Shown piece by piece: positions 7,851-30,226 of a DNA stretch of 32,000 bases (its first letter is position 1; every line of letters begins with the position of its first letter). Source of the stretch: Trichodesmium erythraeum IMS101 (GTDB lineage Bacteria > Cyanobacteriota > Cyanobacteriia > Cyanobacteriales > Microcoleaceae); contig NC_008312.1 in the NCBI RefSeq assembly GCF_000014265.1, positions 3,270,001 to 3,302,000 on the forward strand, given 5' to 3'. The translations under genes were made by a program, and so were the position numbers. The notes beneath the pieces are model-generated. The model made no database searches. It was not told where the DNA came from and saw nothing but the letters and a program-made list of their open reading frames with translations.

Positions 7851-7851
7851 T

Positions 7852-9012: not shown

Positions 9013-9183
9013 AGTTTTTTTCTGTCTTAGGTATGATTTGATTTTTTTTATGATATACTATAATTTATCTATATAATAATCTATAATCTTCTATATTTAA
9101 TTACTTGACTATATTGAAGATTAATTGTATAGTATTAATTAAATTTATCCTTGTAGGACTAGTAAATTTATAACAAGGTATAA

Positions 9184-9256
9184 GCGCCTTTGGCCGATTG
9201 GGGAGGCAGCGAGCTCATAATTCGCTTTCAGGCTGGTTCGATTCCAGCAGGGCGCA
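9184..9256 (+). tRNA. tRNA with CAU anticodon (elongator-Met or lysidine-type Ile2 class), non-canonical D arm and variable loop; copy 1
   Basis: I folded a cloverleaf by hand. The acceptor stem is GCGCCTT/AGGGCGC with one G-U pair and discriminator A. The D stem is 3 bp (GCC/GGC) with loop residues ATTGGGG. The anticodon stem is GCGAG/TTCGC with loop CTCATAA. The T arm is GCTGG-TTCGATT-CCAGC. No CCA is encoded, and the absence of a C1xA72 mismatch argues against an initiator tRNA. Confidence 0.7.
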
Positions 9257-10097: not shown

Positions 10098-10170
10098 GCG
10101 CCTTTGGCCGATTGGGGAGGCAGCGAGCTCATAATTCGCTTTCAGGCTGGTTCGATTCCAGCAGGGCGCA
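10098..10170 (+). tRNA. Second copy of the same tRNA(CAU), 73/73 identical to copy 1
   Basis: The sequence is identical to 9184-9256. A TATAAT hexamer lies at 10083-10088, about 9 nt upstream. The first ~40 nt of trailer are only about 70 percent identical to the copy 1 trailer, and the upstream flanks are unrelated. Confidence 0.7.
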
Positions 10171-10401
10171 TTTGTTTGGTATTTAAGGTGTCAAAGCTTT
10201 TTTTAATTTTCGATTTTCTGGGCTTTCATATTTAATCACCAAACCTAAGATAGGACATAAATGACTTGTTGGGATTCTATGATAATAATTTCATAAATCC
10301 CTTAATCTTAAGTAAATATAGAACTAGGTATAATTTTTAATTCATCTACCTATCATGAAATATAATATCATATTTCGCACCCAAGGGCATAAACAAACAA
10401 G

Positions 10402-11733
10402 ATGAATCTCAGCAAAAAAACTATTGTAGCCTTTGTCTCTCCAGGAATACCCCTTTCTGCTCTTGGCCTTCCTCTTTTAGTCTATCTTCCCCCATTTTAT
10501 GCAGAAGAAATGGGACTTGGCCTGTCTCTAGTAGGCACAATTTTTATGATTGCCCGTTTGTGGGACGTTTTTACTGATCCAGTTCTTGGTGTTTTCAGCG
10601 ATCGAGTCACAACTCCACTAGGTCGTCGGCGCCATTGGATTATATTATCTGTCCCTATTTTAATGATTTGTGTTTATAAAGTGTTTATGCCAGGAGCACA
10701 AATCACAGGAAATTATCTTCTGTTTTGGATGCTGTTGTTGTATGTCGGTTGGACTCTGCTGAGTATCTCTCATATGTCTTGGGGAGCAGAGTTATCATCA
10801 GATTATTATGAGCGATCGCGAGTTCAAGGTTGGCGAGAGTTTGCTTTAGTCTTTGGTATGTTAGCGGTTTTGATACTCCCAACTATTCTGGAACAGACTG
10901 GAGGTGTTGATAGTAGTACGAAAGTTGCGGCTATGGGTTGGTTTACAATTATACTGCTGCCTATTACTGTAGCGTTCGCTGTGAGTAATGTTAAAGAAAG
11001 AGCTGTGGAACCATCTTGCCAACTTGGTTTCTTTGAGTCAGCTTCTATACTGTTGAAAAATAAACTACTAATACAGGTTCTACTAGCAGATTTAATGATT
11101 GGTCTAATTCCTGGAATTATTGGATCAATCTACATTTTTTTTGTGACTTATGTCATGGAATTAGGTGAACAGTCTAATTTGATGCTTTTACTGTATTTTA
11201 CGGCTAGTTTTTGTGGAATTCCTGTTTGGATGCGTCTTAGTTATAAGTTGGAAAAGCATCGGACTTTTGGTGTTGCTAAAATATATGGTTGTATAGTTCT
11301 TGCTAGTTTATTCCTTGTTCAACCAGGAAATTTATGGTTGTATGCTTTGGTTAATATTCTTTTCGGTATTGAATCTGGTTCGGGAGCATTTTTATTGCGC
11401 TCAATTATGGCAGATGTTACGGACCATGATAATTTGGAATCTGGGACACAACGTACAGGTCTTTACTATTCACTATTAACCATGACTACTAAAGTTGGTT
11501 CTGCTTTGGGAGTTGGGATAATTTATCGTATTTTAGATTGGATAGGTTTTGACCCTGGGGTGGAAAATACTGCGGGAGCAATTGAGGCTCTTAAATATAT
11601 ATTTATTTTTGTACCTATTCCCATTAGTATTTTGGCAGCGATCGTTATCTGGAATTTTCCACTAGACAGCACTCGACAAAAAGAATTACGTCGTTTACTG
11701 GCAGAACGTGATTCTGTGATTAGCTCAAAATAA
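10402..11733 (+). CDS. MFS transporter of the GPH (glycoside-pentoside-hexuronide:cation symporter, MelB-like) family
   Basis: The protein has about 12 hydrophobic segments and the GPH signature region ARLWDVFTDPVLGVFSDRVTTPLGRRRHWI (R..D...DP..G...D......GRRR). Confidence 0.85.
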   Translation: MNLSKKTIVAFVSPGIPLSALGLPLLVYLPPFYAEEMGLGLSLVGTIFMIARLWDVFTDPVLGVFSDRVTTPLGRRRHWIILSVPILMICVYKVFMPGAQITGNYLLFWMLLLYVGWTLLSISHMSWGAELSSDYYERSRVQGWREFALVFGMLAVLILPTILEQTGGVDSSTKVAAMGWFTIILLPITVAFAVSNVKERAVEPSCQLGFFESASILLKNKLLIQVLLADLMIGLIPGIIGSIYIFFVTYVMELGEQSNLMLLLYFTASFCGIPVWMRLSYKLEKHRTFGVAKIYGCIVLASLFLVQPGNLWLYALVNILFGIESGSGAFLLRSIMADVTDHDNLESGTQRTGLYYSLLTMTTKVGSALGVGIIYRILDWIGFDPGVENTAGAIEALKYIFIFVPIPISILAAIVIWNFPLDSTRQKELRRLLAERDSVISSK

Positions 11734-11823
11734 TTCGAGAATTATCAGCTAATATGATTTTGCTTTCTGAAGGTTCAGGACTTGGTCAGGAACCTAGTTT
11801 ATGGGAGGCAGATTTTTAGATAG

Positions 11824-11915
11824 TCAGGACTTACGCTTAGGAACTAATTGTATTGTAAATATATCAAAAAAATTCCAAACATACAATATACATAGCGGTA
11901 TTGCGTAAGTCCTGA
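11824..11915. mobile_element. MITE-like 92-bp element between convergent genes
   Basis: It has perfect 13-bp terminal inverted repeats, tcaggacttacgc (11824-11836) and gcgtaagtcctga (11903-11915). TAG flanks both sides, which may be a 3-bp duplication. A third partial copy of tcaggactt lies nearby at about 11775. Confidence 0.5.
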
Positions 11916-11949
11916 TAGTCAAACATCAATCTAGGCTGCTAACACTTGC

Positions 11950-15126: not shown

Positions 15127-15646
15127 ATTTTTTTCTGTAGCTTCATACTCAGGATTTAATATATTTTGTCTAAGGTCAGTAATTATATTTATAGGTGGAA
15201 AATTAGAATCATTACTAGGTAATAGGCGATCATCACAAACAAGGCCTAATCCACAAAGGCCATCTCCTGAAACAAAAGGGGATATTTCCTGTGCAAAAAT
15301 ACATTCTATGATAATTTCTGTTAATCACTTCTATTAGGAAGTATTACATACTGAATTAACTCTATTATCAATAATCCACGTTTGCTTAAAAAAAATTAAT
15401 AATCGCCCAAAACCAAGGTATAATAGGTATCGATAAAAATATTTTGAAATTTTTTTAAAGATAGATAAGATTCAAAATTTAGGAACAGGGTTGATGTTAG
15501 ACTCTTCTATCTGTTATTATTTAAAGTTTACTAAGTTGGATAATTTAAGAATGCTCGCGCTAGTATAGACTAAATAAAAACTAAAAATACTTTAGTTATT
15601 AAAACTTCTGTAGTTCTTATAGAGCAATAAACTTATTTATTTTCCT

Positions 15647-17659: not shown

Positions 17660-17713
17660 TCAAGTGCATTAGCAACTTTTCAGACAATAGAAACTGAGGC
17701 TAGTTATCAGTTT

Positions 17714-20700
17714 TTGCATGATCGGGTACAACAAGCAGCTTATTTGTTAATTCCAGAAGAGCAAAAACAAGCAACTCATTTAAAAATAGGGCGATTATTG
17801 TTAGAAAATATCCCAAAAACTGAAAGACAAGATAGGATTTTTGATATTGTTAATCAGTTAAATTATGGGATGGATTTAATGAATAATTCTATTGAGCGAA
17901 AACAACTTGCTGGGTTAAATTTAATTGCTGGAAAGAAAGCTAAGGTTTCTGGTGCTTATAATACTACAATTAATTATTTCAATACAGGTCTAGAGTTGTT
18001 AACTGTTAATAGTTGGAAAACGAATTATGATTTAACATTATCCCTCTATGTAGAAGCCACAGAAGTGAGTTCTTTGATAGGTGAGTATGAGCAGATGGAC
18101 AAATTAGCTGAGGTTGTATGTCAACAAGCTAAAAGTTTATTGGAGAAAGTTCCAGTTTACATGAGTAAAATTAAATCTGAATTTGCTCAAAACCAAATGA
18201 TGAAAGGTATTGATCTAGCTATAGTAGTTATTAAAAATTTAGGATTAGAATTATCTCCTATATTGGAAGAAGCAGAGTTATCTGCTGCTATTGCAGAACT
18301 CCAGTCATTGATATTTCTGAGCGATCGCTCCACTGAAGACCTCAAACAACTTCCAGAAATGAAAAATCCTGAAAAGTTAGCTTTAATAGAACTTTTAGGG
18401 TTAATAGGAGCAGCAGCTTTTGTTGTGGGTTCCCCACTATGGTCGAGTATAGTTTTTGCTATGGTTACTTTATCTATGGAGTGGGGTAATACTCCTGTTT
18501 CTGCTTACGGTTATAGCTCTTACGGAATTTTCCTCTGGAGTAGAGGAGAAATTAAAGCAGCTTCTGAGTTTTCTGAGGTAACATATAGACTATTCGAGCG
18601 CTTCGGTGGAGATACTCTCAAAGGACTGACTGTCGCAAACCTCCATCTGCGCCATTGGAAAGAACATTTAGGAAAAACTTTGCCTTTATTTCTAGAATGT
18701 TATTCCCTAGCTTTGTCTAGAGGAGACTTGGAATTTGCTAGTTATAATATTTCTTTACACTCTTTTTATTCCTACTTTATTGGGTCAGAATTAACAGAGC
18801 TTTCTCTAAAGCTGAATAACGCTATTGATGCTGTTTTTCAAATGAAGCACAAAGTTCCTCTAACCTGGTTGCAAATGACTCAACAAACTATTCTGAACTT
18901 AAGCGATCGCTCTGAAAATACCTGTTTATTAATTGGTGAAGCTTTTGATGAGACAAAAATACAGCCTCAAGAAGATTTTGGACTGACATACTTACATTTT
19001 TATAAACTTTATTTATATTATCTGTTTGGCGACTACCAAGAATCTCTAAAATTTTGTCTAGCAGGACAAACATATCTGCATTTTAGTAGTTCTGACTATA
19101 GTCTCATACTTTTCTATTTTTATGGCTCTTTAATTCGACTTGCTTTGTACAATGAAGGTTCAGAAGAAGAACAACAACAGTGGTTAGAACAAGTGACCTC
19201 TTACCAGAAACAGATGAAAATTTGGGCGCACCATGCTCCTATGAACTTTTTACATAAATTTCATCTAGTAGAAGCAGAAAAACATCGGGTGCTTCATAAC
19301 TATGTTGAAGCAATTGAACTTTATGAACAAGCGATCGCTGGAGCTACAGAAAATAAATATATTCAAGAAGTTGCCCTAGCTAATGAACTTGCAGCTAAAT
19401 TTTACTTAGGGTGGAATAAAGAGACTATTGGCCAAGCATATTTAATCAAAGCTTACTACGCTTATGCTCAGTGGGGAGCTACTGCTAAACTTAAACATCT
19501 AGAAAAGTGCTACGGTGATCTACTTAAACCCCTACAGGAACAAAAACCTAATTTGACTTCTAGCTTAACTACTGAAACTATCATATATACAAGTAGTGAT
19601 ACCTCTTTAATTTTTGACTTCAAGAGTGTGATGAAAGCAACTCAGGCAATTTCAGGAGAAATTAAACTTGAGAATTTACTCTCGGTTTTGATGCGAGTTA
19701 CCCTAGAAAGTGCTGGAGCTAAAAAAGGTTATTTAATCTTACCCCAAGGGGAAAATTGGGTAATAGAAGCTGAGGCTATTCGTAATAGAAACCTTGAGGG
19801 AGAATTACAGCTAACAGCAAAACAGTCTATTTCTATTAACTCCACAAATAAGCTTTCTACTTCTGTTGTTTATTATGTGGCGCGTACTCAAGAAATTGTT
19901 GTACTTGATGATGCTACTAATGAAACTAAGTTTGCTGCTGATACTTATATTCAAAGGTATAAACCTAAGAGTATTTTATGTATTCCCATTATTAATCTTT
20001 CTCAATTTATTGGCATACTATATCTAGAAAATAATCTGACGGTAGGAGCTTTTACTAGGGATCGCCTAGAAGTATTAAAATTTCTCACTACTCAAGCAGC
20101 TTTATCCTTAGAAAATGCCAGGCTTTATGAAACCTTATCTATTGCTAAAAATCAACTTGAAGAATATAATCAGACCTTAGAGGAGCAGGTTAAAAAACGT
20201 ACTGAAGAATTAAATGAAAAAAATGTAGATTTATCTGAAACTATCAAAAAACTACAAAAGGCTCAAGGTCAATTAATTCAAACGGAAAAAATGTCTAGTT
20301 TAGGGCAGATGGTAGCGGGAATTGCTCACGAAATTAATAATCCAAACAATTTTATATATGGCAATGTTAATCACGCTATTGAATATAGCAAAAATTTACT
20401 TAATTTAATCAATCTTTATCAGGAAGAATATCCTCATCCGACAATTAAAATAGAAGAAATGACTGAAGATATAGATTTCTATTTTTTAAGAGAAGATTTA
20501 TACAAATTACTAGATTCTATTAAAGTAGGAGCTGAAAGAATTCAAAAAGTTGTGCTATCTCTACGGAATTTTTCGAGATTAGATGAATCAGATATGAAGC
20601 CAGTAAATATCCATGAAGGTATTGATAGTACTCTACTAATTTTACAAAATAAACTTAACTATAAAATTGGAAAATCAGAAATTAAAGTAGTCAAAAACTA

Positions 20701-21085
20701 TGGGCCTCTTCCATTAGTAAACTGTTACGCTTCTTACTTAAATCAAGTATTTATGAATATTTTAATTAATGGTATTGATGCTCTAGAAGAGGCGAGAAAA
20801 AATAATAGTGAATTAGAAGAGCCTATTATTATTATTAGTACAGAAATTACTCAAGACCAGACTGTAACAATTAAAATTTTTAACAACGGCCCTAGCATTA
20901 GTCTCGAAAATCAAAGGAAGATATTTGACCCATTTTTTACTACTAAACCAGTGGGTACTGGTACAGGTTTAGGTTTATCAATTAGTTATTCAATTGTTGT
21001 TGAAAAACATAAGGGTAAGCTAACTTGTAATTCTTCATTAGGGAAAGGAGTAGAATTTGTGATTGATATTCCATGTGACCTATAA
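17714..21085 (+). CDS. C-terminal segment of the same multi-kinase: helical/TPR-like region + GAF + HisKA + HATPase_c
   Basis: This segment is in the same frame as 15647..17659, and the family-typical FLHDRVQQAAY motif follows the TAG. It has a GAF-like region (GYLILPQGENWVIEAEA...ILCIPIINLSQFIGILYLEN), an H-box (VAGIAHEINNPNNF), an N-box (NQVFMNILINGIDAL) and a G2 box (GTGTGLGLSISYSIV). The ORF-track start is a TTG inside the conserved motif. Confidence 0.85.
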   Translation: MHDRVQQAAYLLIPEEQKQATHLKIGRLLLENIPKTERQDRIFDIVNQLNYGMDLMNNSIERKQLAGLNLIAGKKAKVSGAYNTTINYFNTGLELLTVNSWKTNYDLTLSLYVEATEVSSLIGEYEQMDKLAEVVCQQAKSLLEKVPVYMSKIKSEFAQNQMMKGIDLAIVVIKNLGLELSPILEEAELSAAIAELQSLIFLSDRSTEDLKQLPEMKNPEKLALIELLGLIGAAAFVVGSPLWSSIVFAMVTLSMEWGNTPVSAYGYSSYGIFLWSRGEIKAASEFSEVTYRLFERFGGDTLKGLTVANLHLRHWKEHLGKTLPLFLECYSLALSRGDLEFASYNISLHSFYSYFIGSELTELSLKLNNAIDAVFQMKHKVPLTWLQMTQQTILNLSDRSENTCLLIGEAFDETKIQPQEDFGLTYLHFYKLYLYYLFGDYQESLKFCLAGQTYLHFSSSDYSLILFYFYGSLIRLALYNEGSEEEQQQWLEQVTSYQKQMKIWAHHAPMNFLHKFHLVEAEKHRVLHNYVEAIELYEQAIAGATENKYIQEVALANELAAKFYLGWNKETIGQAYLIKAYYAYAQWGATAKLKHLEKCYGDLLKPLQEQKPNLTSSLTTETIIYTSSDTSLIFDFKSVMKATQAISGEIKLENLLSVLMRVTLESAGAKKGYLILPQGENWVIEAEAIRNRNLEGELQLTAKQSISINSTNKLSTSVVYYVARTQEIVVLDDATNETKFAADTYIQRYKPKSILCIPIINLSQFIGILYLENNLTVGAFTRDRLEVLKFLTTQAALSLENARLYETLSIAKNQLEEYNQTLEEQVKKRTEELNEKNVDLSETIKKLQKAQGQLIQTEKMSSLGQMVAGIAHEINNPNNFIYGNVNHAIEYSKNLLNLINLYQEEYPHPTIKIEEMTEDIDFYFLREDLYKLLDSIKVGAERIQKVVLSLRNFSRLDESDMKPVNIHEGIDSTLLILQNKLNYKIGKSEIKVVKNYGPLPLVNCYASYLNQVFMNILINGIDALEEARKNNSELEEPIIIISTEITQDQTVTIKIFNNGPSISLENQRKIFDPFFTTKPVGTGTGLGLSISYSIVVEKHKGKLTCNSSLGKGVEFVIDIPCDL

Positions 21086-21906: not shown

Positions 21907-24882
21907 CTAAATAGTTAATTTTGATGGCATATCAATATAAGTTTTGAGTCTGGAAGCTAAAACCTGAACATGGGGTTCAAGCATCATGGTAATATGATCC
22001 CCAGGAACAGTCTCAAGTTCTACAGAACGTTGAGAAAGTTGCTCCCAACCCAAAAAAGAATTCTTTTGCAGTTGGTTGCGAATAGTATCAGTCAAACCAA
22101 TGGCGCTATTCCAAGTACGAACATCACTACTACGGAAAAGAGCAATAGGAGTCGGATAAAGTTTCTCTGGGTGATAATGACCCATCGCATAAACACTAGC
22201 TTTTAAAACTTTGACAAAACTATGCACTTGTCTTTTAGCTGCCTGAGAAGAACGTACATGAAGCTTTTTCACTAGTTGCTCAGTTACATAATTTAATTGC
22301 TCATCAGGAGAGAAAACTTTCAGATCATTATAGGATATCTCTAAATTTTCCTTTAAAAAGTATTCAAATAACCTCACGACCTCACTCATATATTTAGTAT
22401 CATCCCAACCCGCAATTATAAAACTACTAAATAAAGGGGCAGGAATATCAAAAACAGCAAGTAAACCAATTTCATCTCCCTGTTTTTGTAACTGTTGGGA
22501 TATTTCAAAAGCTACTTGCCCACCAAAAGAATGACCACCCAAAAAATAAGGACCTGTGGGCTGAATCTTTTTTAATGCGTCAATATAGTCGGCAGCGATC
22601 GCCTCAACATTTGTTTGAGGTTCTGCTTGATCATCCATTCCCCGTGCTTGTAGTCCGTAAAATGGTTGGTCTTGACCGAGATGAAAGGCTAGAGAATGGA
22701 GATAAAACGCAGTTCCCACACCCCCAGGGATACAGAAAAAAGGAGGCTTAGAACCTTTTGCTTGAATTGCTATTACAGGAGTAGCAAAACCCGAACCTAA
22801 GTTTCCATCTGCAACTAACCCTATATCATAATTTGCAGAAGGTTGTGGGGAAAGCACTTCTTTTGCCAAATAATTAGCTAGAGCTTCAACTGTGGGATAT
22901 TCAAAAATTAGTGTTGCCGGAAAAGAAGTTCCTAAGCTATCTTGGAGAAGATCGCTCAACTCAACAACTGTCAGAGAATCTAATCCCATACTAGTTAAAG
23001 GTTGTTGCCAGTCTAATTGAGATTTATTTACCTGGAGAATATTTGAGATTAAAATCTGAAGATGAGATATTAGTAATTCTTGACGTTTTTCAAGTGTGGT
23101 AGCTAAGAGTGTTTTTCTATCTAAGAAAGCTTCTTTTTCCTTTTCCAACAGATCAAATTCTTGGTAAATACTACTGCCAACAACATCAAGACTTTGCTCT
23201 AAAAAACCTACTTTGCAAGCATGACGCTGAATCTTGTTGCTAGAAGTTTTAGGAATAGTTCCTGTTTTCAATAATAATATCCCATAAACTTGTAACTGAT
23301 GCTGTTGAGATACAGCTTGACGGATAGCGTTAACAACCTCATCTACATCCAGTTTATCTAAGTAACTTTCCTGAACTTCTTGAACAATGACCAACCTTTC
23401 CTCACTTTCCAACTCTACGGAAAATGCTGCACCACAACTAGGTCGTAAAGCTTGATGACTTCTGTCTACAGTTAACTCAATATCCTGGGGATAATGGTTA
23501 CTACCTCGGATAATAATTAAATCTTTGAGACGACCAGTGACAAATAATTCATCATTGAGCAAAAATCCTAAGTCACCAGTCCTGAGAAACGGACCCTCCT
23601 GTGTATCTTTTAAGTAATTTTGAAAAGTTTCTGCTGTTGCTTGGGGTCTACTCCAATAACCTTGAGCAACACTAGGACTAGAAACCCAAATCTCTCCCAC
23701 TTGGTCATCTGCACATTCAGTTAAAGTTTCCGGGTTAACAATGAGAATTTTTTCACCTGAACTAGCGCGACCACAACTAACAATTTTTTGGGTACTATCA
23801 TTCTCGTCAACTGTTACCAAAACCCGATTTTTAGTAAATTCAGCCTTGTCAACATTCAGAATAACTGGGGGTTCTGTTATTAAGCCTAAAGTAATACCGA
23901 CAACACTCTCTGCCATCCCATAGCCTGCAGTTAAAGCCTCTGGGCGAAAGCCATAGGGTTTAAAAGTCTTGATAAACCGCTCAAATGTCTCCGCACGAAT
24001 TGGTTCAGCACCGCTAAGAGCTAACTCCCAATTACTTAGGTCAAGCATTGCCCGTTCTTCAGGGGTTGTTTGAAAACAAACTAGGTCATAAGCAAAGTTA
24101 GGAGCTAGGCTTTGAGTAGCTTTGTAATGAGACATAGCCATTAGCCAACGGAAAGGTTTTTGCAGAAAATCCAATGGCGACATAATTTTAACAGGGAAAT
24201 TACCGTAGAGAGGTTGTAGAACTCCCACTAATAACCCTGTATTGTGACTAAAGGGTAACCAAGTCACTGTAATACTTTCAGGTGTAATATCAGATTGTTC
24301 ATAGCCCATAGCTAAATTGTGCAGAATATTTTTGTGGGTGATCATTACACCTTTAGGTTTTCCAGTTGAACCGGAAGTGTATTGAAGAAAAGCCAATGTA
24401 TCACCGTTGATATTAGGTTCTTGCCAATGGGACTCCAGATTTTGAGCAATAATATTATCGGTATCTAACAGCTGTATTGTTGCTAACATGGGATTTTCCG
24501 CAAAGCGACCTTTTAAGTAAGGTAATAGAGGTGTAGTGGTAAGAATCAACTTTGCTTGAGCATCTGCTGCAATTGCTTCTAATTTTGAGAGGGACTGATC
24601 AGGGCGTGGTGGATAGGTTGGTATAGCGATCGCCCCCCCATACAAACAGCCAAAAAATCCAGCCATCAATTTTAGTCCAGGGGGGTACAACAGCAAGACT
24701 CTTTCACCTTTAGCATTTAGGGACTGAAGATTTGCTGCTATGGCCTTAGCGTGTTGTTCTAATATTTGATAGGTAAGACTATCAGCTTCTGTTTCACCAT
24801 CTTTGAGAAAAGTATAGGTTTTTTGCTTAGGTTGATCTAGGGTTCTATGGTGTAGGAGGTCTATTAAAGTATCAAATTGCAT
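21907..24882 (-). CDS. Tri-domain fatty acyl-AMP ligase (FAAL) - acyl carrier protein - thioesterase
   Basis: The N-terminus is FAAL-type (LTYQILEQHAKAIAANL...LLLYPPGLKLMAGFFGCLYGGAIAIPTYPP). The AMP-binding core is LQYTSGSTGKPKGVMITHKNILHN. The phosphopantetheine attachment site is LTSMGLDSLTVVEL. The alpha/beta-hydrolase TE has GGHSFGG (GxSxG) and a C-terminal VPGDHITMM. Confidence 0.9.
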   Translation of the reverse strand: MQFDTLIDLLHHRTLDQPKQKTYTFLKDGETEADSLTYQILEQHAKAIAANLQSLNAKGERVLLLYPPGLKLMAGFFGCLYGGAIAIPTYPPRPDQSLSKLEAIAADAQAKLILTTTPLLPYLKGRFAENPMLATIQLLDTDNIIAQNLESHWQEPNINGDTLAFLQYTSGSTGKPKGVMITHKNILHNLAMGYEQSDITPESITVTWLPFSHNTGLLVGVLQPLYGNFPVKIMSPLDFLQKPFRWLMAMSHYKATQSLAPNFAYDLVCFQTTPEERAMLDLSNWELALSGAEPIRAETFERFIKTFKPYGFRPEALTAGYGMAESVVGITLGLITEPPVILNVDKAEFTKNRVLVTVDENDSTQKIVSCGRASSGEKILIVNPETLTECADDQVGEIWVSSPSVAQGYWSRPQATAETFQNYLKDTQEGPFLRTGDLGFLLNDELFVTGRLKDLIIIRGSNHYPQDIELTVDRSHQALRPSCGAAFSVELESEERLVIVQEVQESYLDKLDVDEVVNAIRQAVSQQHQLQVYGILLLKTGTIPKTSSNKIQRHACKVGFLEQSLDVVGSSIYQEFDLLEKEKEAFLDRKTLLATTLEKRQELLISHLQILISNILQVNKSQLDWQQPLTSMGLDSLTVVELSDLLQDSLGTSFPATLIFEYPTVEALANYLAKEVLSPQPSANYDIGLVADGNLGSGFATPVIAIQAKGSKPPFFCIPGGVGTAFYLHSLAFHLGQDQPFYGLQARGMDDQAEPQTNVEAIAADYIDALKKIQPTGPYFLGGHSFGGQVAFEISQQLQKQGDEIGLLAVFDIPAPLFSSFIIAGWDDTKYMSEVVRLFEYFLKENLEISYNDLKVFSPDEQLNYVTEQLVKKLHVRSSQAAKRQVHSFVKVLKASVYAMGHYHPEKLYPTPIALFRSSDVRTWNSAIGLTDTIRNQLQKNSFLGWEQLSQRSVELETVPGDHITMMLEPHVQVLASRLKTYIDMPSKLTI

Positions 24883-25677
24883 AATTAAAAAAAAAGCTAA
24901 ACATCTTGATATTAAAACTTCGGAGTTAATACCCCTACTATGTTTTTCTGCGCTGATAGTTTAACATAAATGTATATTTGTTTCAAGTGAAAAATAATCA
25001 TTCAAAAAATTGGAGTAACAGTATACGATATTTCCTGCCCCAGCTACAAACAATAAAACAATTGGCTTTAGTTTTTACTCTGTTAGCTGTTGAGGCACTG
25101 AAATATATATTTTTTGATCTATGCCAATTAGTCTTTTAGCAGCAATTATTATCTATAAATTTCCACTATACAGGACTCAAAAAAAAATAATTTTTTTGTA
25201 TTTATCCAAGGTATATTTGACCAAGTTTAGTGCAATATTACTTTGATTACTTTTGTACAAGGATTTCGTAATTTAATATAAAAATTTCTGAATAAAACAT
25301 AAATTAAATCACAAAAATTGAAGAATGCAATTATCTCAAAATTTAGTAATAATAGGTAAAATATTATTTAATTTATATTTTTATAATATCTTGATAATAA
25401 GTACAAAAAACCTTTGATCTTTAAACCTATTTTTCCTTGAGTATAATTGCCTTTCTTCCTACAAAATGTAAATATTCACCCATAAATAATATTTTTTATA
25501 ACTAAATATATTATTTATTTGTCCTCAACTTGCGGTCAAATAATTACCAGATAATAGGCTTGATAATTGCTTTGATCTACTTTTTTTAAAGGCTCATTGA
25601 TTTTCCTAGAGATTTATAGTTGGTGGAAATGTCTGAGACAAATGGTAATGAATATAAGTTGTTCACAATTAGGTAAC

Positions 25678-26571
25678 CTAATCAAATGCTATTGAATTAA
25701 TTTCAGGTAAAAATCCAGCATTTTTTACCCACTTAGCACATTCTGTTTCTAACTCTTCAGACATAATTATATCATATCTTTTGAGCTGTTCAGTAGTTAA
25801 TAAATTGTGCCAGCGACCATTTACTCCTTTATTAATAAAAGTATTAGGTTGAAAGACTCCTTTTTGCTGAAACTTTTGCCAATTTGACTTCATATATTCT
25901 AGAGAACTTTTTTCTAAGACCATCTCTTTTTTTGAACTATTGATATTTAGATTGAGAAATTCAGAAATTCTGTCAATTTCTTGAGATTTATCATAGATTA
26001 AATTATGATAGTGGACTAAAAGTACATTCGGTAAATTTCTTACCTGCCACCAACTTTTTATATGTTTCCAATAAGACCAATACTGATTTTTATCCTCTTT
26101 TGTTTCTACAAAATCATCCCAAAAAGCCGCAAAATCTTGTGGTAAATTTTCATGGAAATATTCAGGCAAGAAAGATTGATAATGATGATATAAAGATAAT
26201 CCCACATCTCTGCCATCTCTTACTAAATAAATATATTTCCATTCTGGGTAACATGGTAAAGCTTCAAACAATAGATGACTTTTTAAAATTCTGGGGCTAG
26301 ACAAACTTTCTATCCAAGATTTTTTATTTTCTGGGGGAGTAATAAAAATTTCTTCTACCCAGGGACTAAGATCATGGAGAGATTCAAAATCATCATGGCC
26401 ATTAACCATTAAATTAACTATTTGTTGAGTTAAAGTTGTGCCTGACTTATAACAGGAGGAGATGACAATATCAGTATTTCTAGGCTTAATTAAATCCCAG
26501 ATTGTTGAATTCTGTAGCTCGCTTTTTATTACTATCCGGTTTTTCGGTAATGATTGATAATTTGGCAGCAT
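25678..26571 (-). CDS. PAPS-dependent sulfotransferase (cytosolic SULT / Sulfotransfer_1-like)
   Basis: The 5'-PSB loop is SSCYKSGTTLTQQIV, the 3'-PB motif is YLVRDGRDVGLSLYHHY, and the C-terminal motif INKGVNGRWHNLLT is of the RKG..GDWKN.FT type. Confidence 0.85.
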   Translation of the reverse strand: MLPNYQSLPKNRIVIKSELQNSTIWDLIKPRNTDIVISSCYKSGTTLTQQIVNLMVNGHDDFESLHDLSPWVEEIFITPPENKKSWIESLSSPRILKSHLLFEALPCYPEWKYIYLVRDGRDVGLSLYHHYQSFLPEYFHENLPQDFAAFWDDFVETKEDKNQYWSYWKHIKSWWQVRNLPNVLLVHYHNLIYDKSQEIDRISEFLNLNINSSKKEMVLEKSSLEYMKSNWQKFQQKGVFQPNTFINKGVNGRWHNLLTTEQLKRYDIIMSEELETECAKWVKNAGFLPEINSIAFD

Positions 26572-26980
26572 AATAATTTTCTAAATTTTTCCCGTTTAGT
26601 TGCTTTATGATTTTTAGATTAATTATCTAAATAATTAGATTAGTTTAATGCTAAAAAAATCAAGATCGTCTTTTTCTGGGATATCAAAAAAGATTAGGAA
26701 TTACTCAATATTTTTGACCCTTTTACCATTATATAGCTAACTAGAAAGTAATGGCAAATTTTTACCTAGGGCTTGCTAATTCAATATAAAAGCACTAGCA
26801 CATAAAGGCTTTAGTGTTTTTTAATCGAAAAAACTACCTGGTTTCCGATCCCTGAAGCTAAAAAAGCTAGCATTTCGAGAACTCCTATGCCAGAAAAATC
26901 AAGAGACAAATAATATTCCACCGCTTCCTCTACCTACTTCCTTACTTCTTAAACAGACTTTTTTAGCAGACCCTAGCTAG

Positions 26981-28258
26981 TTATATAGTTCCTGTTAAAA
27001 CTGGTTTACCTGTTGATACTGCCTGTTCAATAATATCAGCAGCACGAGTGACTCCACCTGCTCGTTTAATTGCTTTCTGTAATCTCAAAGCATTTTGCTT
27101 ATATGACGGTTGTGTGAGCACCTGAGAAATAGCTGTTCGTAACCGAGGTACTGTTAAACGTTTCAGTGTTATCGCTACTCCAGCTCCAGCCCAAGCTATT
27201 CGTGCCGCTACTCCTGGTTGATCGTTAGCAATAGGAATAGCAACCATTGGTACTGCATTACTTAAACATTCTAGAGTTGTATTCATACCTGCATGAGTAA
27301 TAGTGAGAGTAGCTTTTTGCAGTATTTCTAATTGGGGTGCATATTCAACAACTAGAGGATTTCCTGCTAAGTTGGGTAGAGATTCTGGAGTGGCAGAACC
27401 TCCCAGAGAAATAACTAACTGAGCATCCAACCCCTCACAAGCTGCTGTAATTTGATAAAATACCTCAACCAAACGATTTTGTATAGTTCCCATAGAGGCA
27501 TAAATTAAAGGTTTACCTGTCAACTGTTCCCAAGGAAAGGAAACAGGTTCTCTAGTACCTGAATAATGATAAGGTCCTGTGAAATGAAAACACTTAGGTA
27601 AATTTTCTCTGGGAAATTCTAACTCAGCAGGTTGCTGACTAATTTGAGCCAGTAGAGAATAAGCATCATTGGGGTCAGAGTACAAAGGTAAATTCCATTG
27701 ACGACGATACTCAGCTACTACCTTGTTAATAGGTTTGCCTAAGATTTGATAGAAACTCCAAGTAGCTCTATTACGCAGTTTTGCCCACCAGGCGGGGTTA
27801 TATTTCCAGTTGCTTACAGGGTGGGGAACATTCTCATCTTGATTGAGTACCAGTGCACTACAAATAGTAATAAAGGGAATGTCTAGAAAATCCCCTATAG
27901 ATTCTCCTAATGAAGCCTGGTCGATTAACAAAGCATCTACACCAGCATTTTTGATGACTTGCGGAGCATCCCGAAGCAAAACATTTGTCCAGTCTTTTAA
28001 TAGTGTAATTGTATAGCGAAATGCAGCTAACCCGCTGAGTTTACTCAGGTGATTTAAAGCTTCTGCTGTGCTGCCCTTAGAATATTCTTCCGTGCCATAG
28101 GCAACAAATTCTAATCCTGCTGCTAGTGTCTTAGCTTCAGCGTCAAGTATCCCTATCGTCGTGACACGATGACCACGCCTTTTTAATTCTTGTCCTATGG
28201 GAAGCATTGGATTTAGGTGTCCTGTCAATGCCGGACAAATCAGACCAAAATGAGTCAT
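26981..28258 (-). CDS. GT1-family UDP-glycosyltransferase (MGT / CrtX-like)
   Basis: The N-terminus is ALTGHLNPMLPIGQELKRRGHRVT and the UDPGT signature region is THAGMNTTLECLSNAVPMVAIPIANDQPGVAARIAWAGAG. I prefer the ATG at 28258 (MTHFGLI...). The ORF-track start at 28324 would overlap the upstream GalU gene by 20 nt. Confidence 0.85.
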   Translation of the reverse strand: MTHFGLICPALTGHLNPMLPIGQELKRRGHRVTTIGILDAEAKTLAAGLEFVAYGTEEYSKGSTAEALNHLSKLSGLAAFRYTITLLKDWTNVLLRDAPQVIKNAGVDALLIDQASLGESIGDFLDIPFITICSALVLNQDENVPHPVSNWKYNPAWWAKLRNRATWSFYQILGKPINKVVAEYRRQWNLPLYSDPNDAYSLLAQISQQPAELEFPRENLPKCFHFTGPYHYSGTREPVSFPWEQLTGKPLIYASMGTIQNRLVEVFYQITAACEGLDAQLVISLGGSATPESLPNLAGNPLVVEYAPQLEILQKATLTITHAGMNTTLECLSNAVPMVAIPIANDQPGVAARIAWAGAGVAITLKRLTVPRLRTAISQVLTQPSYKQNALRLQKAIKRAGGVTRAADIIEQAVSTGKPVLTGTI

Positions 28259-28304
28259 AGTAAGTTTTTTCCTGGTTTTCTGATTTTCCCCTACAATCAT
28301 ACTA

Positions 28305-29189
28305 TCAAGCATTACGAAAATCAATCATTGTCTGCCAATACACATCTGGCATCCCCGTATCAAAACATCGCCCTTTGACTAAATACCCTGTCATTCCTTC
28401 TGCTTTTTGTAATTTATCTAAACAAGATGTCAGTTGAAATTCTCCTTTTTCCCTCGCATTTTGTTTAATGTTTTCTTCTAGGTAATCAAATATTCTTGCG
28501 GTTAATACATATATCCCAAAAACTCCTAAAAAGTGTTCTTTTTTCATCCCTAACACATGAAGCTTTTCTCTGGCATAATTTAGGTCTGGTTTTTCATAAA
28601 TTGTATCAATATTAATTAGACTATCGGCAACTAAAGTTCCACCAATACAACCATAATGATGTATTTCTGTTCCTGGGATAATTCTCACCCCAAGTACACT
28701 TTTATTCGTCTGTTCATAGACTTGCAAAAATTGACTTGTACAGGATTTTGTGACCTCAGAAGTATAAAGATGATCCCCCAGTAATAGCAAAAAAGGTTCG
28801 TCTCTTACCCAATCTTTAGCACAGAAAACAGCATGACCATAACCAGCCTGCTGCTCTTGAGTTAAGAAAGTAATTTTATTACCTAAATTTTGTAAATATT
28901 GGCAATATTCTTGTTTTTCCGGGGAGAGTTTTTCATAATAACTAGGAACACCTTGGAAATAGTCTGTAAAAATTTGGCGATCGCTTTCCTGTACCACCAC
29001 TCCCACCTCTTCTATTCCACCACTTATAGCCTCTTCAATAATTATTTGAATTATTGGTTTAGCTCTGCCATCTTTGTCTATTATGGGAAATAGTTCTTTT
29101 TTCACAACTTTAGTAACTGGGAACATCCTTGTACCGAAACCTGCCGCTGGAATTACTGCTTTTCTTACTTTAGCTGTTGTTTCTGTCAT
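28305..29189 (-). CDS. galU: UTP--glucose-1-phosphate uridylyltransferase (GalU type)
   Basis: The N-terminal nucleotidyltransferase motif is KAVIPAAGFGTRMFPVTKVVKKELFPIIDKDG. The 294-aa length fits the family, and LLLGDH is also present. Confidence 0.85.
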   Translation of the reverse strand: MTETTAKVRKAVIPAAGFGTRMFPVTKVVKKELFPIIDKDGRAKPIIQIIIEEAISGGIEEVGVVVQESDRQIFTDYFQGVPSYYEKLSPEKQEYCQYLQNLGNKITFLTQEQQAGYGHAVFCAKDWVRDEPFLLLLGDHLYTSEVTKSCTSQFLQVYEQTNKSVLGVRIIPGTEIHHYGCIGGTLVADSLINIDTIYEKPDLNYAREKLHVLGMKKEHFLGVFGIYVLTARIFDYLEENIKQNAREKGEFQLTSCLDKLQKAEGMTGYLVKGRCFDTGMPDVYWQTMIDFRNA

Positions 29190-29912: not shown

Positions 29913-29940
29913 GTAGGGACATTCCATAGAACGTCCCTAC
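29913..29940. repeat. Palindromic repeat gtagggac-N12-gtccctac, related to the element at 29567..29622
   Basis: It has 8-bp perfect arms, with 3 more pairs after one mismatch, and shares a ~27-nt direct repeat with 29603-29631. Confidence 0.5.
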
Positions 29941-29946
29941 TGTGGT

Positions 29947-30226
29947 CTAACTATTAAAAAAAACACTGTAATTATTTAATTTGCTTCCATCTCCAAAATA
30001 CAAAATAATCAACTTACCATCTTTACCACTGCTAATGAGCTTGCTATCAGGAGTAAACGCTACCGAAGTTATAGCTCTTGTATGTTCCTTACATATAGAA
30101 ATAGGTGTTAGCCTTTTCAGACTCCAAACTTTAATATTTCTATCACTGTCTTTACTCACAATTAACTTTCCATCGGAGCTGAAAGCTAGCGAGTTAAAAA
30201 CAGCTGAATGTGTTCTACGGTAGTTA
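29947..30226 (-). pseudogene. WD40-repeat protein fragment (about two WD repeats, no credible start)
   Basis: My hand translation reads DNYRRTHSAVFNSLAFSSDGKLIVSKDSDRNIKVWSLKRLTPISICKEHTRAITSVAFTPDSKLISSGKDGKLIILYF. It shows the WD40 pattern H...V.S(L/V)AF(S/T)(S/P)D(G/S)KL..S...D..IK(V)W. It begins directly at the stop of the upstream MscS gene. Confidence 0.45.

What the first reader, a model, noticed from the sequence alone, without database searches (positions are those of the whole stretch)
21907..29189. Candidate undescribed lipid pathway: FAAL-ACP-TE + SULT-type sulfotransferase + GT1 glycosyltransferase + GalU, all co-oriented
Four consecutive minus-strand genes together supply four functions. 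GalU activates a sugar (UDP-glucose), the GT1 enzyme is a UDP-sugar transferase, the sulfotransferase is PAPS-dependent, and the FAAL-ACP-TE activates, carries and releases a fatty acid. No PKS or NRPS module is present. The logic resembles mycobacterial acyl-trehalose chemistry, where the FAAL FadD32 loads Pks13 and the Pks13 TE transfers the acyl chain to trehalose, and where Stf0 sulfates trehalose for sulfolipid-1. A plausible product is therefore a sulfated fatty-acyl glycoside or another sulfoglycolipid distinct from SQDG. One caveat is that only GalU and the GT are tightly linked (46-nt gap). The sulfotransferase and the FAAL gene are separated by spacers of about 410 and 795 nt, so co-regulation is unproven.
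Basis: inference. Interest (0 to 1): 0.7.

Follow-up and report, generated by a model that had tools for sequence, protein, structure and literature searches.

The report
Candidate sulfated acyl-glycoside gene cassette
Four neighbouring genes of the ocean nitrogen-fixer Trichodesmium erythraeum (a sugar activator, a sugar transferase, a sulfate transferase and a fatty-acid loading and releasing enzyme) belong to a set of genes that repeatedly cluster together in cyanobacteria. They probably decorate a lipid-like molecule with sugar, sulfate and a fatty acid, but no product has been described.

Summary
Window 21907-29189 (Trichodesmium erythraeum IMS101, ABG51345-ABG51348) carries four co-oriented genes. 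They encode a FAAL-ACP-TE tri-domain protein, a SULT-type sulfotransferase, a CrtX/MGT-type GT1 glycosyltransferase and a GalU-like nucleotidyltransferase. No PKS or NRPS module is present.

- The exact four-gene order occurs only in T. erythraeum-type genomes.
- Pairwise links recur. GalU-GT(x1-3) occurs in Okeania and Dapis. GalU or GT/FkbM sits directly upstream of FAAL-ACP-TE in four other genomes. ST-ST-FAAL-ACP-TE occurs in another Trichodesmium lineage.
- Across cyanobacteria this GT family clusters with P450s, three different Sulfotransfer_1 subfamilies, FkbM methyltransferases, PapA5-like acyltransferases and exporters.
- The same P450 and FkbM families also flank FAAL-ACP-TE orthologues in Nostocales.

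Against a single pathway:
- FAAL-ACP-TE stands alone in Crocosphaera.
- None of 80 GT-anchored metagenome loci contains it.
- The nearest ST homologues outside Trichodesmium pair with a sulfatase.
- The ST evolves under relaxed constraint.
- The ST-FAAL spacer is a rearrangement scar.

The ST is not Stf0- or CurM-like, and the TE is a generic type I TE. My best reading is an orphan cassette for an acylated, sulfated glycoside of a lipophilic alcohol (confidence about 0.45). I rate it a new variant of a known kind.

The parts
28305..29189 (-). GalU-like sugar-1-phosphate nucleotidyltransferase (294 aa), probably a UDP-hexose supplier
   Evidence: Pfam NTP_transferase 2.7e-25. TIGR01099 galU scores 190 bits, below the 326.8 cut-off. 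The best solved relatives are all UTP-glucose-1-phosphate uridylyltransferases, E 8e-38. Orthologues (84-89%) sit next to GT arrays or FAAL-ACP-TE in L010, L011, L012, L025, L091, L103 and L179. dN/dS is 0.17-0.21.
26981..28258 (-). GT1 (UDPGT/MGT/CrtX-type) glycosyltransferase, 425 aa
   Evidence: Pfam UDPGT 2.7e-24. TIGR01426 MGT scores 203 bits, below the 260 cut-off. Best solved relatives are 8H5D, 7VM0, YjiC and OleD/OleI. Identity to Pantoea CrtX is 34% over the full length, against 24-28% to macrolide GTs. Orthologues at 60-83% are widespread in cyanobacteria. Motifs TGHLNP (12) and THAGMNT (321) are present.
26572..26980 (-). GT-ST spacer. The last 94 nt before the ST start (26572-26665) travel with the ST gene.
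   Evidence: Positions 26572-26665 are 82-83% identical to the regions upstream of both tandem ST copies in L087-L089. The best promoter-like match of the region is 26757-26728 (11 of 12), but promoter-like sites are not enriched over shuffles.
25678..26571 (-). SULT-type (Sulfotransfer_1) PAPS-dependent sulfotransferase, 297 aa
   Evidence: Pfam Sulfotransfer_1 7.5e-47. Best solved relatives are SULT1B1, 1C2 and 1A1, E 1e-25. Motifs YKSGTT (41), ILKSH (95), VRDGRD (117) and NKGVNGRW (247) are present. There is no similarity to the CurM/Ols-like ST domain of P0079. Copies at 79-82% lie in tandem upstream of FAAL-ACP-TE in L087-L089. dN/dS is 0.49-0.54. GC is 30.9%.
24883..25677 (-). ST-FAAL spacer, a rearrangement scar with gene relics plus a conserved region upstream of the FAAL gene
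   Evidence: Positions 25201-25376 are 76% identical to the kinase gene (window 16700-16875; L016, L025). Positions 25090-25186 are 79% identical to the 3' part of the MFS_2 gene (window 11582-11682; L009, L013, L096). Positions 24891-24998 are 76% identical to the region just upstream of the FAAL gene in L025. GC is 25%. No ORF of 60 aa or more is present.
23176..24882 (-). FAAL domain (residues 1-569) of the 991-aa FAAL-ACP-TE protein
   Evidence: Best solved relative is 7R7E/F/G, E 1e-171, followed by the Legionella FAAL 3KXW and FadD32. NCBIfam FAAL families score 337-424 bits.
22867..23055 (-). Carrier (ACP) domain, residues 610-672, with the GLDSL phosphopantetheine motif at residue 633
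   Evidence: Pfam PP-binding 3.6e-14. Motif position.
21961..22743 (-). Type I thioesterase domain, residues 714-974
   Evidence: Pfam Thioesterase 2.5e-30. Motifs GGHSFGG (782), FDIPAP (811) and PGDH (960) are present. A profile of ACP-TE against solved structures gives AB3403 NRPS TE 7e-37, FAS TE 1e-17 to 5e-21, and Pks13 5e-16 (full length) or 1.6e-8 (TE only); no CurM TE appears.
10402..11733 (+). MFS_2 (GPH-family) transporter, a possible exporter or importer linked to the cassette in relatives
   Evidence: Pfam MFS_2 1.8e-74. Orthologues (87-89%) are divergently adjacent to FAAL-ACP-TE in L009 and L013. An 86% copy ends the GT-P450-PapA-GT4-ST contig L096. A relic lies in the ST-FAAL spacer.
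29913..29940 (-). Terminator-like hairpin between the MscS gene and the GalU-like gene, a possible upstream boundary of the unit
   Evidence: 12-bp stem with 6 GC pairs. This is a consensus match only; terminator-like sites are not enriched over shuffles.

Best explanation
The four genes are the T. erythraeum version of a variable cyanobacterial cassette that builds a decorated glycoside of a lipophilic alcohol.

Proposed steps:
1. The GalU-like enzyme makes a UDP-hexose. This is inferred from family membership.
2. The CrtX/MGT-type GT1 transfers the hexose to a hydroxyl group of a lipophilic acceptor. The acceptor is unknown. It could be a hydroxy fatty acid, an alkanol or a terpenoid alcohol. 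In relatives a P450 next to the GT probably creates that hydroxyl.
3. The FAAL domain adenylates a free long-chain fatty acid and loads it on its own carrier domain. The domain order is shown; the substrate is inferred from the closest FAAL structures.
4. The fused type I TE off-loads the acyl chain. I propose O-acyl transfer onto the glycoside, because pure hydrolysis would make FA -> acyl-AMP -> acyl-ACP -> FA a futile ATP-burning cycle. This step is inferred.
5. The SULT-type enzyme sulfates a sugar or aglycone hydroxyl from PAPS. This is inferred; the PAPS-binding motifs are present.
6. The nearby MFS_2 transporter is a candidate exporter. This is inferred.

The present gene order is derived. 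The FAAL-ACP-TE gene has left its usual site between a tRNA-Met gene and the MFS_2 gene and now lies next to GalU-GT-ST.
For: Domains and motifs.

Recurrent linkage around FAAL-ACP-TE orthologues (25 loci):
- The GalU-like gene lies about 70 nt upstream of FAAL-ACP-TE in Dapis M126 (L010) and Okeania SIO3B5 (L011).
- Dapis M172 (L025) has GalU, three GTs, an FkbM gene and FAAL-ACP-TE.
- Okeania SIO2C9 (L012) has GalU ... GT-FAAL-ACP-TE.
- Another Trichodesmium lineage (L087-L089) has ST-ST-FAAL-ACP-TE with a different downstream context.

Linkage around the GT family:
- A P450 orthogroup lies nearby in 10 of 50 loci of 5 kb or more. Any Sulfotransfer_1 gene lies nearby in 5 of 50, often less than 80 nt from the GT, and these STs belong to three unrelated subfamilies. 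FkbM genes also occur.
- PapA5-like acyltransferases occur in L096 and L167, together with an ST and an MFS transporter.
- In Nostoc NIES-4103 a 59%-identical GT starts inside the stop region of a KS-AT-ACP-TE PKS that is preceded by FAAL-ACP and a P450 and followed by an RND exporter.
- A 62%-identical GT on Nostoc C052 plasmid pC052_E lies among lipid-modifying genes and a DevBCA-type exporter.

Bridges between the two sets:
- The same P450 orthogroup flanks the FAAL-ACP-TE orthologue in Tolypothrix (L024).
- FkbM flanks it in Calothrix PCC 7103 (L026).
- These genes occupy the same hisF-ruvB-TPR slot that holds GT-P450-HAD in other Nostocales.
- MFS_2 links FAAL-ACP-TE (L009, L013) to a GT-P450-PapA-ST contig (L096).

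Selection: FAAL, GT and GalU are under purifying selection, dN/dS 0.17-0.30.
Against: - The full four-gene set is seen only in T. erythraeum-type genomes.
- FAAL-ACP-TE orthologues stand alone in Crocosphaera, including ATCC 51142. Trichodesmium MAG_R02 has no GalU, GT or ST within 8 kb.
- None of 80 GT-anchored metagenome loci contains a FAAL or ACP-TE.
- The nearest non-Trichodesmium homologues of the ST (60%) are paired with a sulfatase and a porin, not with lipid genes.
- ST dN/dS is 0.49-0.54. Truncated or chimeric ST and GT-ST variants circulate in natural populations.
- The spacers are long, contain gene relics and may carry separate promoters.
- The window has neither a P450 nor a PapA-like gene, and no relic of a P450.
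- The relatives with linkage (Trichodesmium, Okeania, Dapis) are closely related, so part of the synteny may be inherited and not selected.
- No product is known.
Confidence: 0.45

Rival explanations
1. The genes are functionally unrelated neighbours. A rearrangement-prone genome placed a self-sufficient FAAL-ACP-TE gene next to a GalU-GT pair and a stray sulfotransferase, and no common product exists.
For: - The ST-FAAL spacer holds relics of MFS_2-like and kinase-like genes. The usual FAAL site (tRNA-Met ... MFS_2) is empty in the window.
- FAAL-ACP-TE stands alone in Crocosphaera.
- None of 80 GT loci has a FAAL.
- ST homologues elsewhere pair with a sulfatase.
- ST constraint is relaxed.
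Against: - GalU-FAAL, GT-FAAL and ST-FAAL adjacencies each recur in genomes whose flanks differ.
- The GT family is repeatedly joined to sulfotransferases of three subfamilies and to acyl-transfer genes.
- The same P450 and FkbM families flank both GT and FAAL-ACP-TE.
Confidence: 0.2
2. FAAL-ACP-TE acts alone in lipid remodelling. It re-activates free fatty acids released by lipases and re-esterifies them onto a common membrane lipid or lysolipid, possibly with the MFS_2 transporter, in analogy to Aas/LplT. GalU-GT-ST would then modify a different substrate.
For: - The family-B FAAL-ACP-TE of Nostoc piscinale is followed 53 nt later by a class-3 lipase and preceded by a PAP_fibrillin gene.
- MFS_2 is divergently adjacent to the gene in L009 and L013.
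- Orthologues stand alone in Crocosphaera.
- A GDSL lipase lies in L167.
Against: - GalU-like genes lie about 70 nt upstream of FAAL-ACP-TE without any GT in L010 and L011.
- FkbM and P450 genes are linked to it in L024-L026.
- The protein has no acyltransferase of the PlsC type.
- The analogy rests on general knowledge and was not tested.
Confidence: 0.15
3. The cassette makes a carotenoid or other terpenoid glycoside. The GT would be a CrtX-like glucosyltransferase of a xanthophyll or other terpenoid alcohol. FAAL-ACP-TE would esterify the sugar, as in carotenoid glycoside esters, and the ST would add sulfate.
For: - CrtX, confirmed between crtE and crtY on a Pantoea plasmid, is the closest characterised homologue. 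It is 34% identical over the full length, against 24-28% for macrolide GTs.
- JGI labels many orthologues as zeaxanthin glucosyltransferase.
- The associated P450s score best against terpenoid oxygenases, weakly.
Against: - No carotenoid or terpene synthase gene lies next to the GT in any of more than 90 loci examined.
- Several GT loci carry fatty-acid or polyketide genes and glycolipid-type exporters.
- 34% identity is family-level similarity and not orthology.
Confidence: 0.15
4. The ST and TE carry out olefin-synthase or CurM-like off-loading. The ST would sulfate a beta-hydroxyacyl-ACP, and the TE would hydrolyse, decarboxylate and eliminate sulfate to give a terminal alkene.
For: - The FAAL domain is closest to structure 7R7E/F/G. 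From my own knowledge, not from the tool, that entry is an olefin-synthase loading domain.
- A fused FAAL-ACP-ST-TE protein exists elsewhere (P0079).
Against: - The window ST has no detectable similarity to the ST domain of P0079. It is SULT1-like.
- CurM-type ST and TE are absent from the solved-structure hits.
- There is no KS, AT or KR to make a beta-hydroxyl.
- The ST is missing from most orthologous loci.
Confidence: 0.03

Closest known systems
Mycobacterial sulfolipid-1 and acyl-trehalose pathways (FadD23/Pks2, PapA1/PapA2, Stf0, MmpL8) and FadD32/Pks13
   Same: The logic is shared: a FAAL loads a fatty acid on a carrier, the acyl chain is transferred to a sugar hydroxyl, a sulfotransferase acts, and a dedicated transporter exports. 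Related cyanobacterial GT cassettes even carry PapA5-like acyltransferases. The Pks13 TE is a detectable but distant homologue of the TE.
   Different: There is no PKS. The ST is a SULT1-type Sulfotransfer_1 enzyme and not Stf0-like. The sugar is installed by a GT1 enzyme with a dedicated GalU-like supplier, not taken as trehalose. The TE is fused directly to FAAL-ACP. The window itself has no PapA or MmpL gene.
CrtX zeaxanthin glucosyltransferase and the MGT-family UDP-glycosyltransferases (OleD/OleI, Bacillus YjiC and relatives)
   Same: The fold and family are the same (Pfam UDPGT, TIGR01426 subfamily level), with full-length alignment. CrtX is the nearest characterised relative.
   Different: Identity to CrtX is only 34%, and no crt genes are nearby. 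The score is below the MGT cut-off. The cyanobacterial orthogroup (60-83% identical across orders) has its own conserved partners: P450, HAD, ST and FkbM genes.
Cyanobacterial olefin synthase (Ols) and the CurM ST-TE off-loading module
   Same: A closely related FAAL loading domain and carrier, and co-occurrence of ST and TE functions.
   Different: The KS-AT-KR module is absent, and the ST and TE are of unrelated subtypes.
Fungal sophorolipid- and cellobiose-lipid-type glycolipid clusters (P450 + GT1 UGTs + acyltransferase + exporter). This comparison rests on general knowledge.
   Same: In relatives the cassette combines a P450, one to four GT1 enzymes, an acyl-transfer function and a transporter. 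This matches a route of hydroxylated lipid, then glycoside, then acylated glycoside.
   Different: The host is bacterial. It adds a SULT-type sulfotransferase and a FAAL-ACP-TE protein. The T. erythraeum window has no P450.

Membership tests
Fatty acyl-AMP ligase (FAAL) | Adenylate-forming domain that groups with FAALs and not with acyl-CoA ligases | tested here: met
   NCBIfam FadD32 424 bits, fatty-acid-AMP ligase PRK05850 423 bits, against 155-289 bits for the CoA-ligase models. The top solved relatives are FAALs: 7R7E 1e-171, 3KXW 1e-138, FadD32 1e-101. All scores are below the equivalog cut-offs.
Fatty acyl-AMP ligase (FAAL) | FAAL-specific insertion that blocks the CoA-ligation conformation | not tested
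   I did not make a residue-level alignment to FAAL and FACL structures.
Fatty acyl-AMP ligase (FAAL) | Hand-over to a cognate carrier domain | tested here: met
   A PP-binding domain (3.6e-14) with a GLDSL motif at residue 633 is fused directly downstream.
Type I thioesterase (PF00975) | Alpha/beta-hydrolase domain with Ser, Asp and His motifs at the C-terminus of a carrier-protein enzyme | tested here: met
   Pfam 2.5e-30. Motifs GGHSFGG (782), FDIPAP (811) and PGDH (960) are present. The triad is assigned from motifs only.
Pks13-type acyl-transferring TE | Closer relationship to the Pks13 TE than to hydrolytic or cyclising TEs | tested here: not met
   The Pks13 TE scores 1.6e-8, against 7e-37 for the AB3403 NRPS TE and 1e-17 for the FAS TE. 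It is absent from the single-sequence hits. Acyl-transfer activity itself cannot be read from sequence.
Cytosolic SULT-type sulfotransferase (Sulfotransfer_1) | Domain match plus the PAPS-binding 5'-PSB and 3'-PB motifs and the catalytic His | tested here: met
   Pfam 7.5e-47. SULT1B1, 1C2 and 1A1 score E 1e-25 to 1e-22. YKSGTT (41), ILKSH (95), VRDGRD (117) and NKGVNGRW (247) are present.
Stf0-type trehalose sulfotransferase | Sequence relationship to Stf0 | tested here: not met
   No chain named as Stf0 or as a trehalose sulfotransferase appears among the 43 solved-structure hits at E <= 1e-5.
CurM/Ols ST-TE off-loading module | CurM-type ST and TE acting on a beta-hydroxyacyl-ACP made by KS-AT-KR | tested here: not met
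   There is no similarity to the ST domain of the FAAL-ACP-ST-TE protein P0079. No CurM ST or TE appears among the hits. The window has no KS, AT or KR.
MGT-family GT1 / CrtX | Score above the TIGR01426 cut-off, or orthology to CrtX with crt gene context | tested here: not met
   203 bits against a cut-off of 260. Identity to CrtX is 34%. No crt genes lie in any locus examined. Family-level homology (Pfam UDPGT 2.7e-24) is met.
GalU UTP-glucose-1-phosphate uridylyltransferase | Equivalog-level score and nucleotide-binding motif | tested here: inconclusive
   TIGR01099 gives 190 bits against a cut-off of 326.8. All 16 solved relatives are UGPases, best 8e-38. The motif AAGFGTR is at residue 15. 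Sugar specificity is not determinable here.
Mycobacterial SL-1-like acyl-sugar sulfolipid system | FAAL + PKS + PapA acyltransferases + sulfotransferase + MmpL transporter in one locus | tested here: not met
   The window has a FAAL and an ST but no PKS, PapA or MmpL. PapA5-like genes occur only in related cassettes L096 and L167. The resemblance is in logic, not in membership.

The most novel reading that the evidence does not exclude
T. erythraeum, and many other cyanobacteria with variant cassettes, make an undescribed class of phosphorus-free anionic glycolipids: sulfated, fatty-acylated glycosides. The acyl group would be installed without any PKS by a stand-alone FAAL-ACP-TE protein whose thioesterase works as an O-acyltransferase. 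The cassette family (CrtX-like GT1, P450, SULT-like STs, PapA-like or FAAL-ACP-TE acyl donors, exporters) would be a phylum-wide counterpart of the mycobacterial acyl-trehalose sulfolipid pathways that arose independently.
Probability: 0.25. Interest if true: 0.75.

Novelty: new variant of a known kind. Interest (0 to 1): 0.55.

Why it matters
Trichodesmium supplies a large share of new nitrogen to oligotrophic oceans and lives under chronic phosphorus scarcity. From general knowledge, sulfur- and sugar-based lipids replace phospholipids under those conditions. A sulfated acyl-glycoside would be a new phosphorus-free anionic lipid or surfactant. It could bear on membrane economy, colony and surface chemistry, and interactions with epibionts.

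Three broader points also follow.
- The analysis exposes an uncharacterised and widespread cyanobacterial glycosyltransferase orthogroup with recurrent P450, sulfotransferase, methyltransferase and acyl-transfer partners.
- It identifies a FAAL-ACP-TE architecture that review literature on FAALs does not describe.
- Both are directly testable by heterologous expression.

Tried and rejected
- **Olefin-synthase/CurM reading.** This was prompted by a fused FAAL-ACP-ST-TE homologue (P0079). I rejected it because the window ST has no similarity to that ST domain, the TE is not CurM-like, and P0079 sits in an unrelated PKS cluster.
- **P450 pseudogene in the spacers.** I found none. The spacers hold MFS_2-like and kinase-like relics instead.
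- **TPR protein next to GT, P450 and FAAL-ACP-TE in Nostocales.** It is most simply a syntenic anchor (hisF-ruvB-TPR) and not a pathway member.
- **Promoter and terminator scans.** They showed no enrichment over shuffles and do not settle operon structure.
- **Rfam.** The whole-window scan found nothing. An 82-nt ultra-conserved element near the ancestral FAAL site proved to be an ordinary tRNA-Met gene.
- **Literature.** Searches for the accessions, for Trichodesmium sulfotransferases and lipids, for CYP110/GT pairs and for slr1125 found no description of the cluster or of a product.
- **Unavailable data.** One GT look-up (P0264) was not on record. The genome-contig scan did not return IMS101 itself although the proteins are from IMS101; the reason is unknown.

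Full report
**Observation**

- 21907-24882 encodes a 991-aa protein with AMP-binding, PP-binding and Thioesterase domains.
- 25678-26571 encodes a 297-aa Sulfotransfer_1 protein.
- 26981-28258 encodes a 425-aa UDPGT-type GT1. Its start is fixed by the MTHFG N-terminus conserved in all homologues.
- 28305-29189 encodes a 294-aa NTP_transferase.

NCBIfam puts these proteins in the FAAL, MGT and GalU families, always below the equivalog cut-offs. The gaps are 46, 409 and 795 nt. None of the other window ORFs tested has a PKS or NRPS domain. The proteins are identical to four consecutive entries of Trichodesmium erythraeum IMS101, ABG51345-ABG51348. The same arrangement is found in strain GBRTRLIN201 and in several ocean metagenome contigs.

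**What each part is**

- **FAAL domain.** It is a genuine FAAL. Its best solved relatives are 7R7E/F/G (E 1e-171), then the Legionella FAAL and FadD32.
- **Carrier domain.** It has the GLDSL serine motif.
- **TE.** It has the GGHSFGG, FDIPAP and PGDH motifs. It is a generic type I thioesterase, closest to an NRPS TE (AB3403) and to FAS TEs. The Pks13 TE is only a distant relative, and no CurM TE appears.
- **Sulfotransferase.** It is SULT-like. Mammalian SULT1B1, 1C2 and 1A1 are the best solved relatives, and the PAPS-binding and catalytic-His motifs are present. It is unrelated to the CurM/Ols-type ST domain of the fused FAAL-ACP-ST-TE protein P0079. No Stf0-type hit appears.
- **GT.** Its nearest solved relatives are Bacillus and Streptomyces small-molecule UGTs. 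Its nearest characterised homologue is Pantoea CrtX, verified by its position between crtE and crtY. Identity is 34% over the full length, against 24-28% for macrolide GTs.
- **GalU-like protein.** All 16 of its solved relatives are UDP-glucose pyrophosphorylases.

**Neighbourhood test anchored on FAAL-ACP-TE**

A scan of one genome per species with an ACP-TE profile returned 79 loci. With the loci from exact look-ups, 25 loci carry orthologues (FAAL at least 65% and ACP-TE at least 49% identical). They come from Trichodesmium, Dapis, Okeania, Crocosphaera, Caldora, Symploca, Tolypothrix, Calothrix and Nostoc.

- The sulfotransferase was found only in T. erythraeum-type contigs. The GT was found in three lineages and the GalU-like gene in five.
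- The GalU-like gene lies about 70 nt upstream of FAAL-ACP-TE in Dapis M126 and Okeania SIO3B5.
- Dapis M172 has GalU, three GTs, an FkbM gene and FAAL-ACP-TE.
- Okeania SIO2C9 has GalU ... GT-FAAL-ACP-TE.
- Exact look-up of ST homologues then showed a second Trichodesmium lineage, seen in three assemblies. It has two tandem STs (about 80% identical to the window ST) directly upstream of an 85%-identical FAAL-ACP-TE, with a different downstream context.
- In contrast, Crocosphaera subtropica ATCC 51142 and its relatives carry the gene alone. Trichodesmium MAG_R02 has no GalU, GT or ST within 8 kb.

**Neighbourhood test anchored on the GT**

The GT belongs to an orthogroup that is 60-83% identical across cyanobacterial orders.

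- In Okeania SIO3I5 the block GalU-GT-GT-GT is followed by a P450 and two sulfotransferases.
- In Crocosphaera XPORK-15E the GT is followed by a sulfotransferase and two P450s.
- In Nostoc edaphicum it is followed by a P450 and a HAD hydrolase.
- A metagenome scan gave 80 further loci, 50 of them 5 kb or longer. Of those 50, 10 carry the same P450 orthogroup, 8 the HAD gene, 5 a sulfotransferase and 2 an FkbM gene. None carries a FAAL or ACP-TE.
- The sulfotransferases near the GT fall into three subfamilies that do not detect one another by BLAST. Sulfation has therefore been recruited to this GT more than once.
- Two GT clusters contain PapA5-like condensation-domain acyltransferases together with an ST and an MFS transporter. 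One of them (L096) comes from a Trichodesmium colony metagenome and ends in an 86% orthologue of the window's MFS_2 gene.
- In Nostoc NIES-4103 a 59% GT is translationally coupled to a KS-AT-ACP-TE PKS that follows a FAAL-ACP and a P450 and precedes an RND exporter.
- On a Nostoc C052 plasmid a 62% GT lies among lipid-modifying genes and a DevBCA-type exporter.

**Bridges between the two gene sets**

- The P450 orthogroup that accompanies the GT lies directly after the FAAL-ACP-TE orthologue in Tolypothrix.
- An FkbM methyltransferase lies directly after it in Calothrix PCC 7103, as in Dapis M172.
- Both cases occupy the hisF-ruvB-TPR slot that holds GT-P450-HAD in other Nostocales.
- The MFS_2 transporter is divergently adjacent to FAAL-ACP-TE in Dapis M229 and a related MAG.

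**History of the locus in the window**

In six relatives a tRNA-Met(CAT) gene and a 222-aa protein gene follow FAAL-ACP-TE. In two of these relatives MFS_2 precedes it.

- In the window the 222-aa gene (8344-9012), the tRNA (9184-9256) and MFS_2 (10402-11733) are present. Between them lie only 841 nt and a second identical tRNA copy (10098-10170).
- The FAAL-ACP-TE gene now lies about 12 kb away. The 795-nt spacer upstream of it carries 76-79% identical fragments of MFS_2-like and kinase-like genes.
- The present juxtaposition with GalU-GT-ST is therefore derived.
- dN/dS against relatives is 0.17-0.30 for FAAL-ACP-TE, GT and GalU, but 0.49-0.54 for the ST.
- Truncated and chimeric ST variants occur in natural populations.
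- The nearest ST homologues outside Trichodesmium (60%) are paired with a sulfatase and a porin.

**Interpretation**

The evidence supports a functional association network. It links the GT to P450, ST, FkbM and PapA-like genes, and it links FAAL-ACP-TE to GalU, GT, FkbM, P450 and MFS_2. It does not support a fixed four-gene operon.

The most economical mechanism is a tailoring cassette for a glycoside of a lipophilic alcohol:
1. UDP-hexose supply by the GalU-like enzyme.
2. Glycosylation by the GT1.
3. Sulfation by the SULT-like enzyme.
4. Supply of a long-chain acyl group by FAAL-ACP-TE.

Because a purely hydrolytic TE would make the tri-domain enzyme a futile cycle, I infer that the TE transfers the acyl chain to an acceptor hydroxyl, or that the acyl-ACP is modified before release. 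All catalytic steps are inferred. Only domain content, motifs and gene associations are shown. The aglycone is unresolved, and the CrtX relationship keeps a terpenoid acceptor open.

Three rivals remain credible:
- chance juxtaposition;
- an independent lipid-remodelling role for FAAL-ACP-TE, supported by the lipase next to the family-B enzyme in Nostoc piscinale;
- a carotenoid glycoside ester pathway.

The olefin-synthase-type reading is disfavoured.

**Comparison and novelty**

The logic resembles the mycobacterial acyl-trehalose and sulfolipid pathways and fungal glycolipid clusters. Membership in those systems fails on defining features: there is no PKS, no Stf0-type ST, and no PapA or MmpL gene in the window. 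I found no description of the cluster, of a stand-alone FAAL-ACP-TE, or of a product in the searchable literature. I classify it as a new variant of a known kind, an orphan glycolipid-type cassette. Interest is moderate. It would be higher if the sulfated acyl-glycoside and the acyl-transferring TE are confirmed.

Noticed in passing
window 9184-9256 and 10098-10170 (+): Two identical tRNA-Met(CAT) genes lie 841 nt apart (ARAGORN; Rfam tRNA 47.1 bits). The same tRNA, 99-100% identical, lies between FAAL-ACP-TE and the 222-aa gene in Dapis, Okeania and other Trichodesmium genomes. The duplicated tRNA marks the site that the FAAL-ACP-TE gene has left in this genome. The whole-window Rfam gathering scan missed both copies.
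   Followed up: partly
window 15647-21085 (+), stop codon at 17660-17662: The Ser/Thr-kinase/AAA/GAF/histidine-kinase gene is a single ORF of about 1,805 aa in Dapis and Trichodesmium MAG_R02. Here one in-frame TAG splits it into 670-aa and 1123-aa ORFs. It is either a pseudogene or a read-through candidate.
   Followed up: partly
window 24883-25677: The ST-FAAL spacer (25% GC) contains old fragments of an MFS_2-like gene (25090-25186, 79% to 11582-11682) and of a kinase-like gene (25201-25376, 76% to 16700-16875).
   Followed up: yes
window 11950-15126 (-), repeat 12019-14148: A 1058-aa protein is built of 7.7 tandem copies of a 279-nt (93-aa) unit at 94% identity. GC is 40-42% in a window that averages 34%. 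Only weak PATR-like Pfam matches were found, and the function is unknown.
   Followed up: no
L180 (Nostoc piscinale CENA21) 8446-14276: A second subfamily of FAAL-ACP-TE proteins (GGWSFGA motif, 44% identical) is followed 53 nt later by a class-3 lipase and preceded by a PAP_fibrillin gene. This hints at a lipid-remodelling role for this architecture.
   Followed up: no
L096 3377-4450 and L167 5012-6397: PapA5-like condensation-domain acyltransferases sit inside GT/P450/ST/MFS clusters in a Trichodesmium colony metagenome and in another cyanobacterial contig. This parallels the mycobacterial acyl-sugar pathways.
   Followed up: partly
L090 and L174 (Okeania SIO3I5; MAG P01_H01_bin.35): The closest non-Trichodesmium homologues of the ST (60%) form a conserved sulfatase-sulfotransferase-OprB porin trio. 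This may be a sulfation and desulfation pair of unknown substrate.
   Followed up: no
protein P0143 (1,128-nt ocean metagenome contig): A 230-aa chimeric ORF joins part of the C-terminal domain of the GT to the last two-thirds of the ST. It is a deletion variant that shows GT-ST adjacency and gene decay in a natural Trichodesmium population.
   Followed up: partly
window 461-847, 3787-5078 and 29947-30159: Mobile-element and gene debris are present: an HTH_Tnp_4 fragment, a DDE transposase fragment and a 70-aa WD40 fragment upstream of the GalU-like gene. This fits a rearrangement-prone, pseudogene-rich genome.
   Followed up: no
L179 (Okeania, GCA_010672695.1) 6471-19489: GalU-GT-GT-GT is followed by an IS605 transposase and then by SDR, carboxylesterase, Baeyer-Villiger-type FMO, SDR and ADH genes. 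That set is typical of sub-terminal alkane or ketone oxidation and may be another source of alcohol acceptors for the GTs.
   Followed up: no
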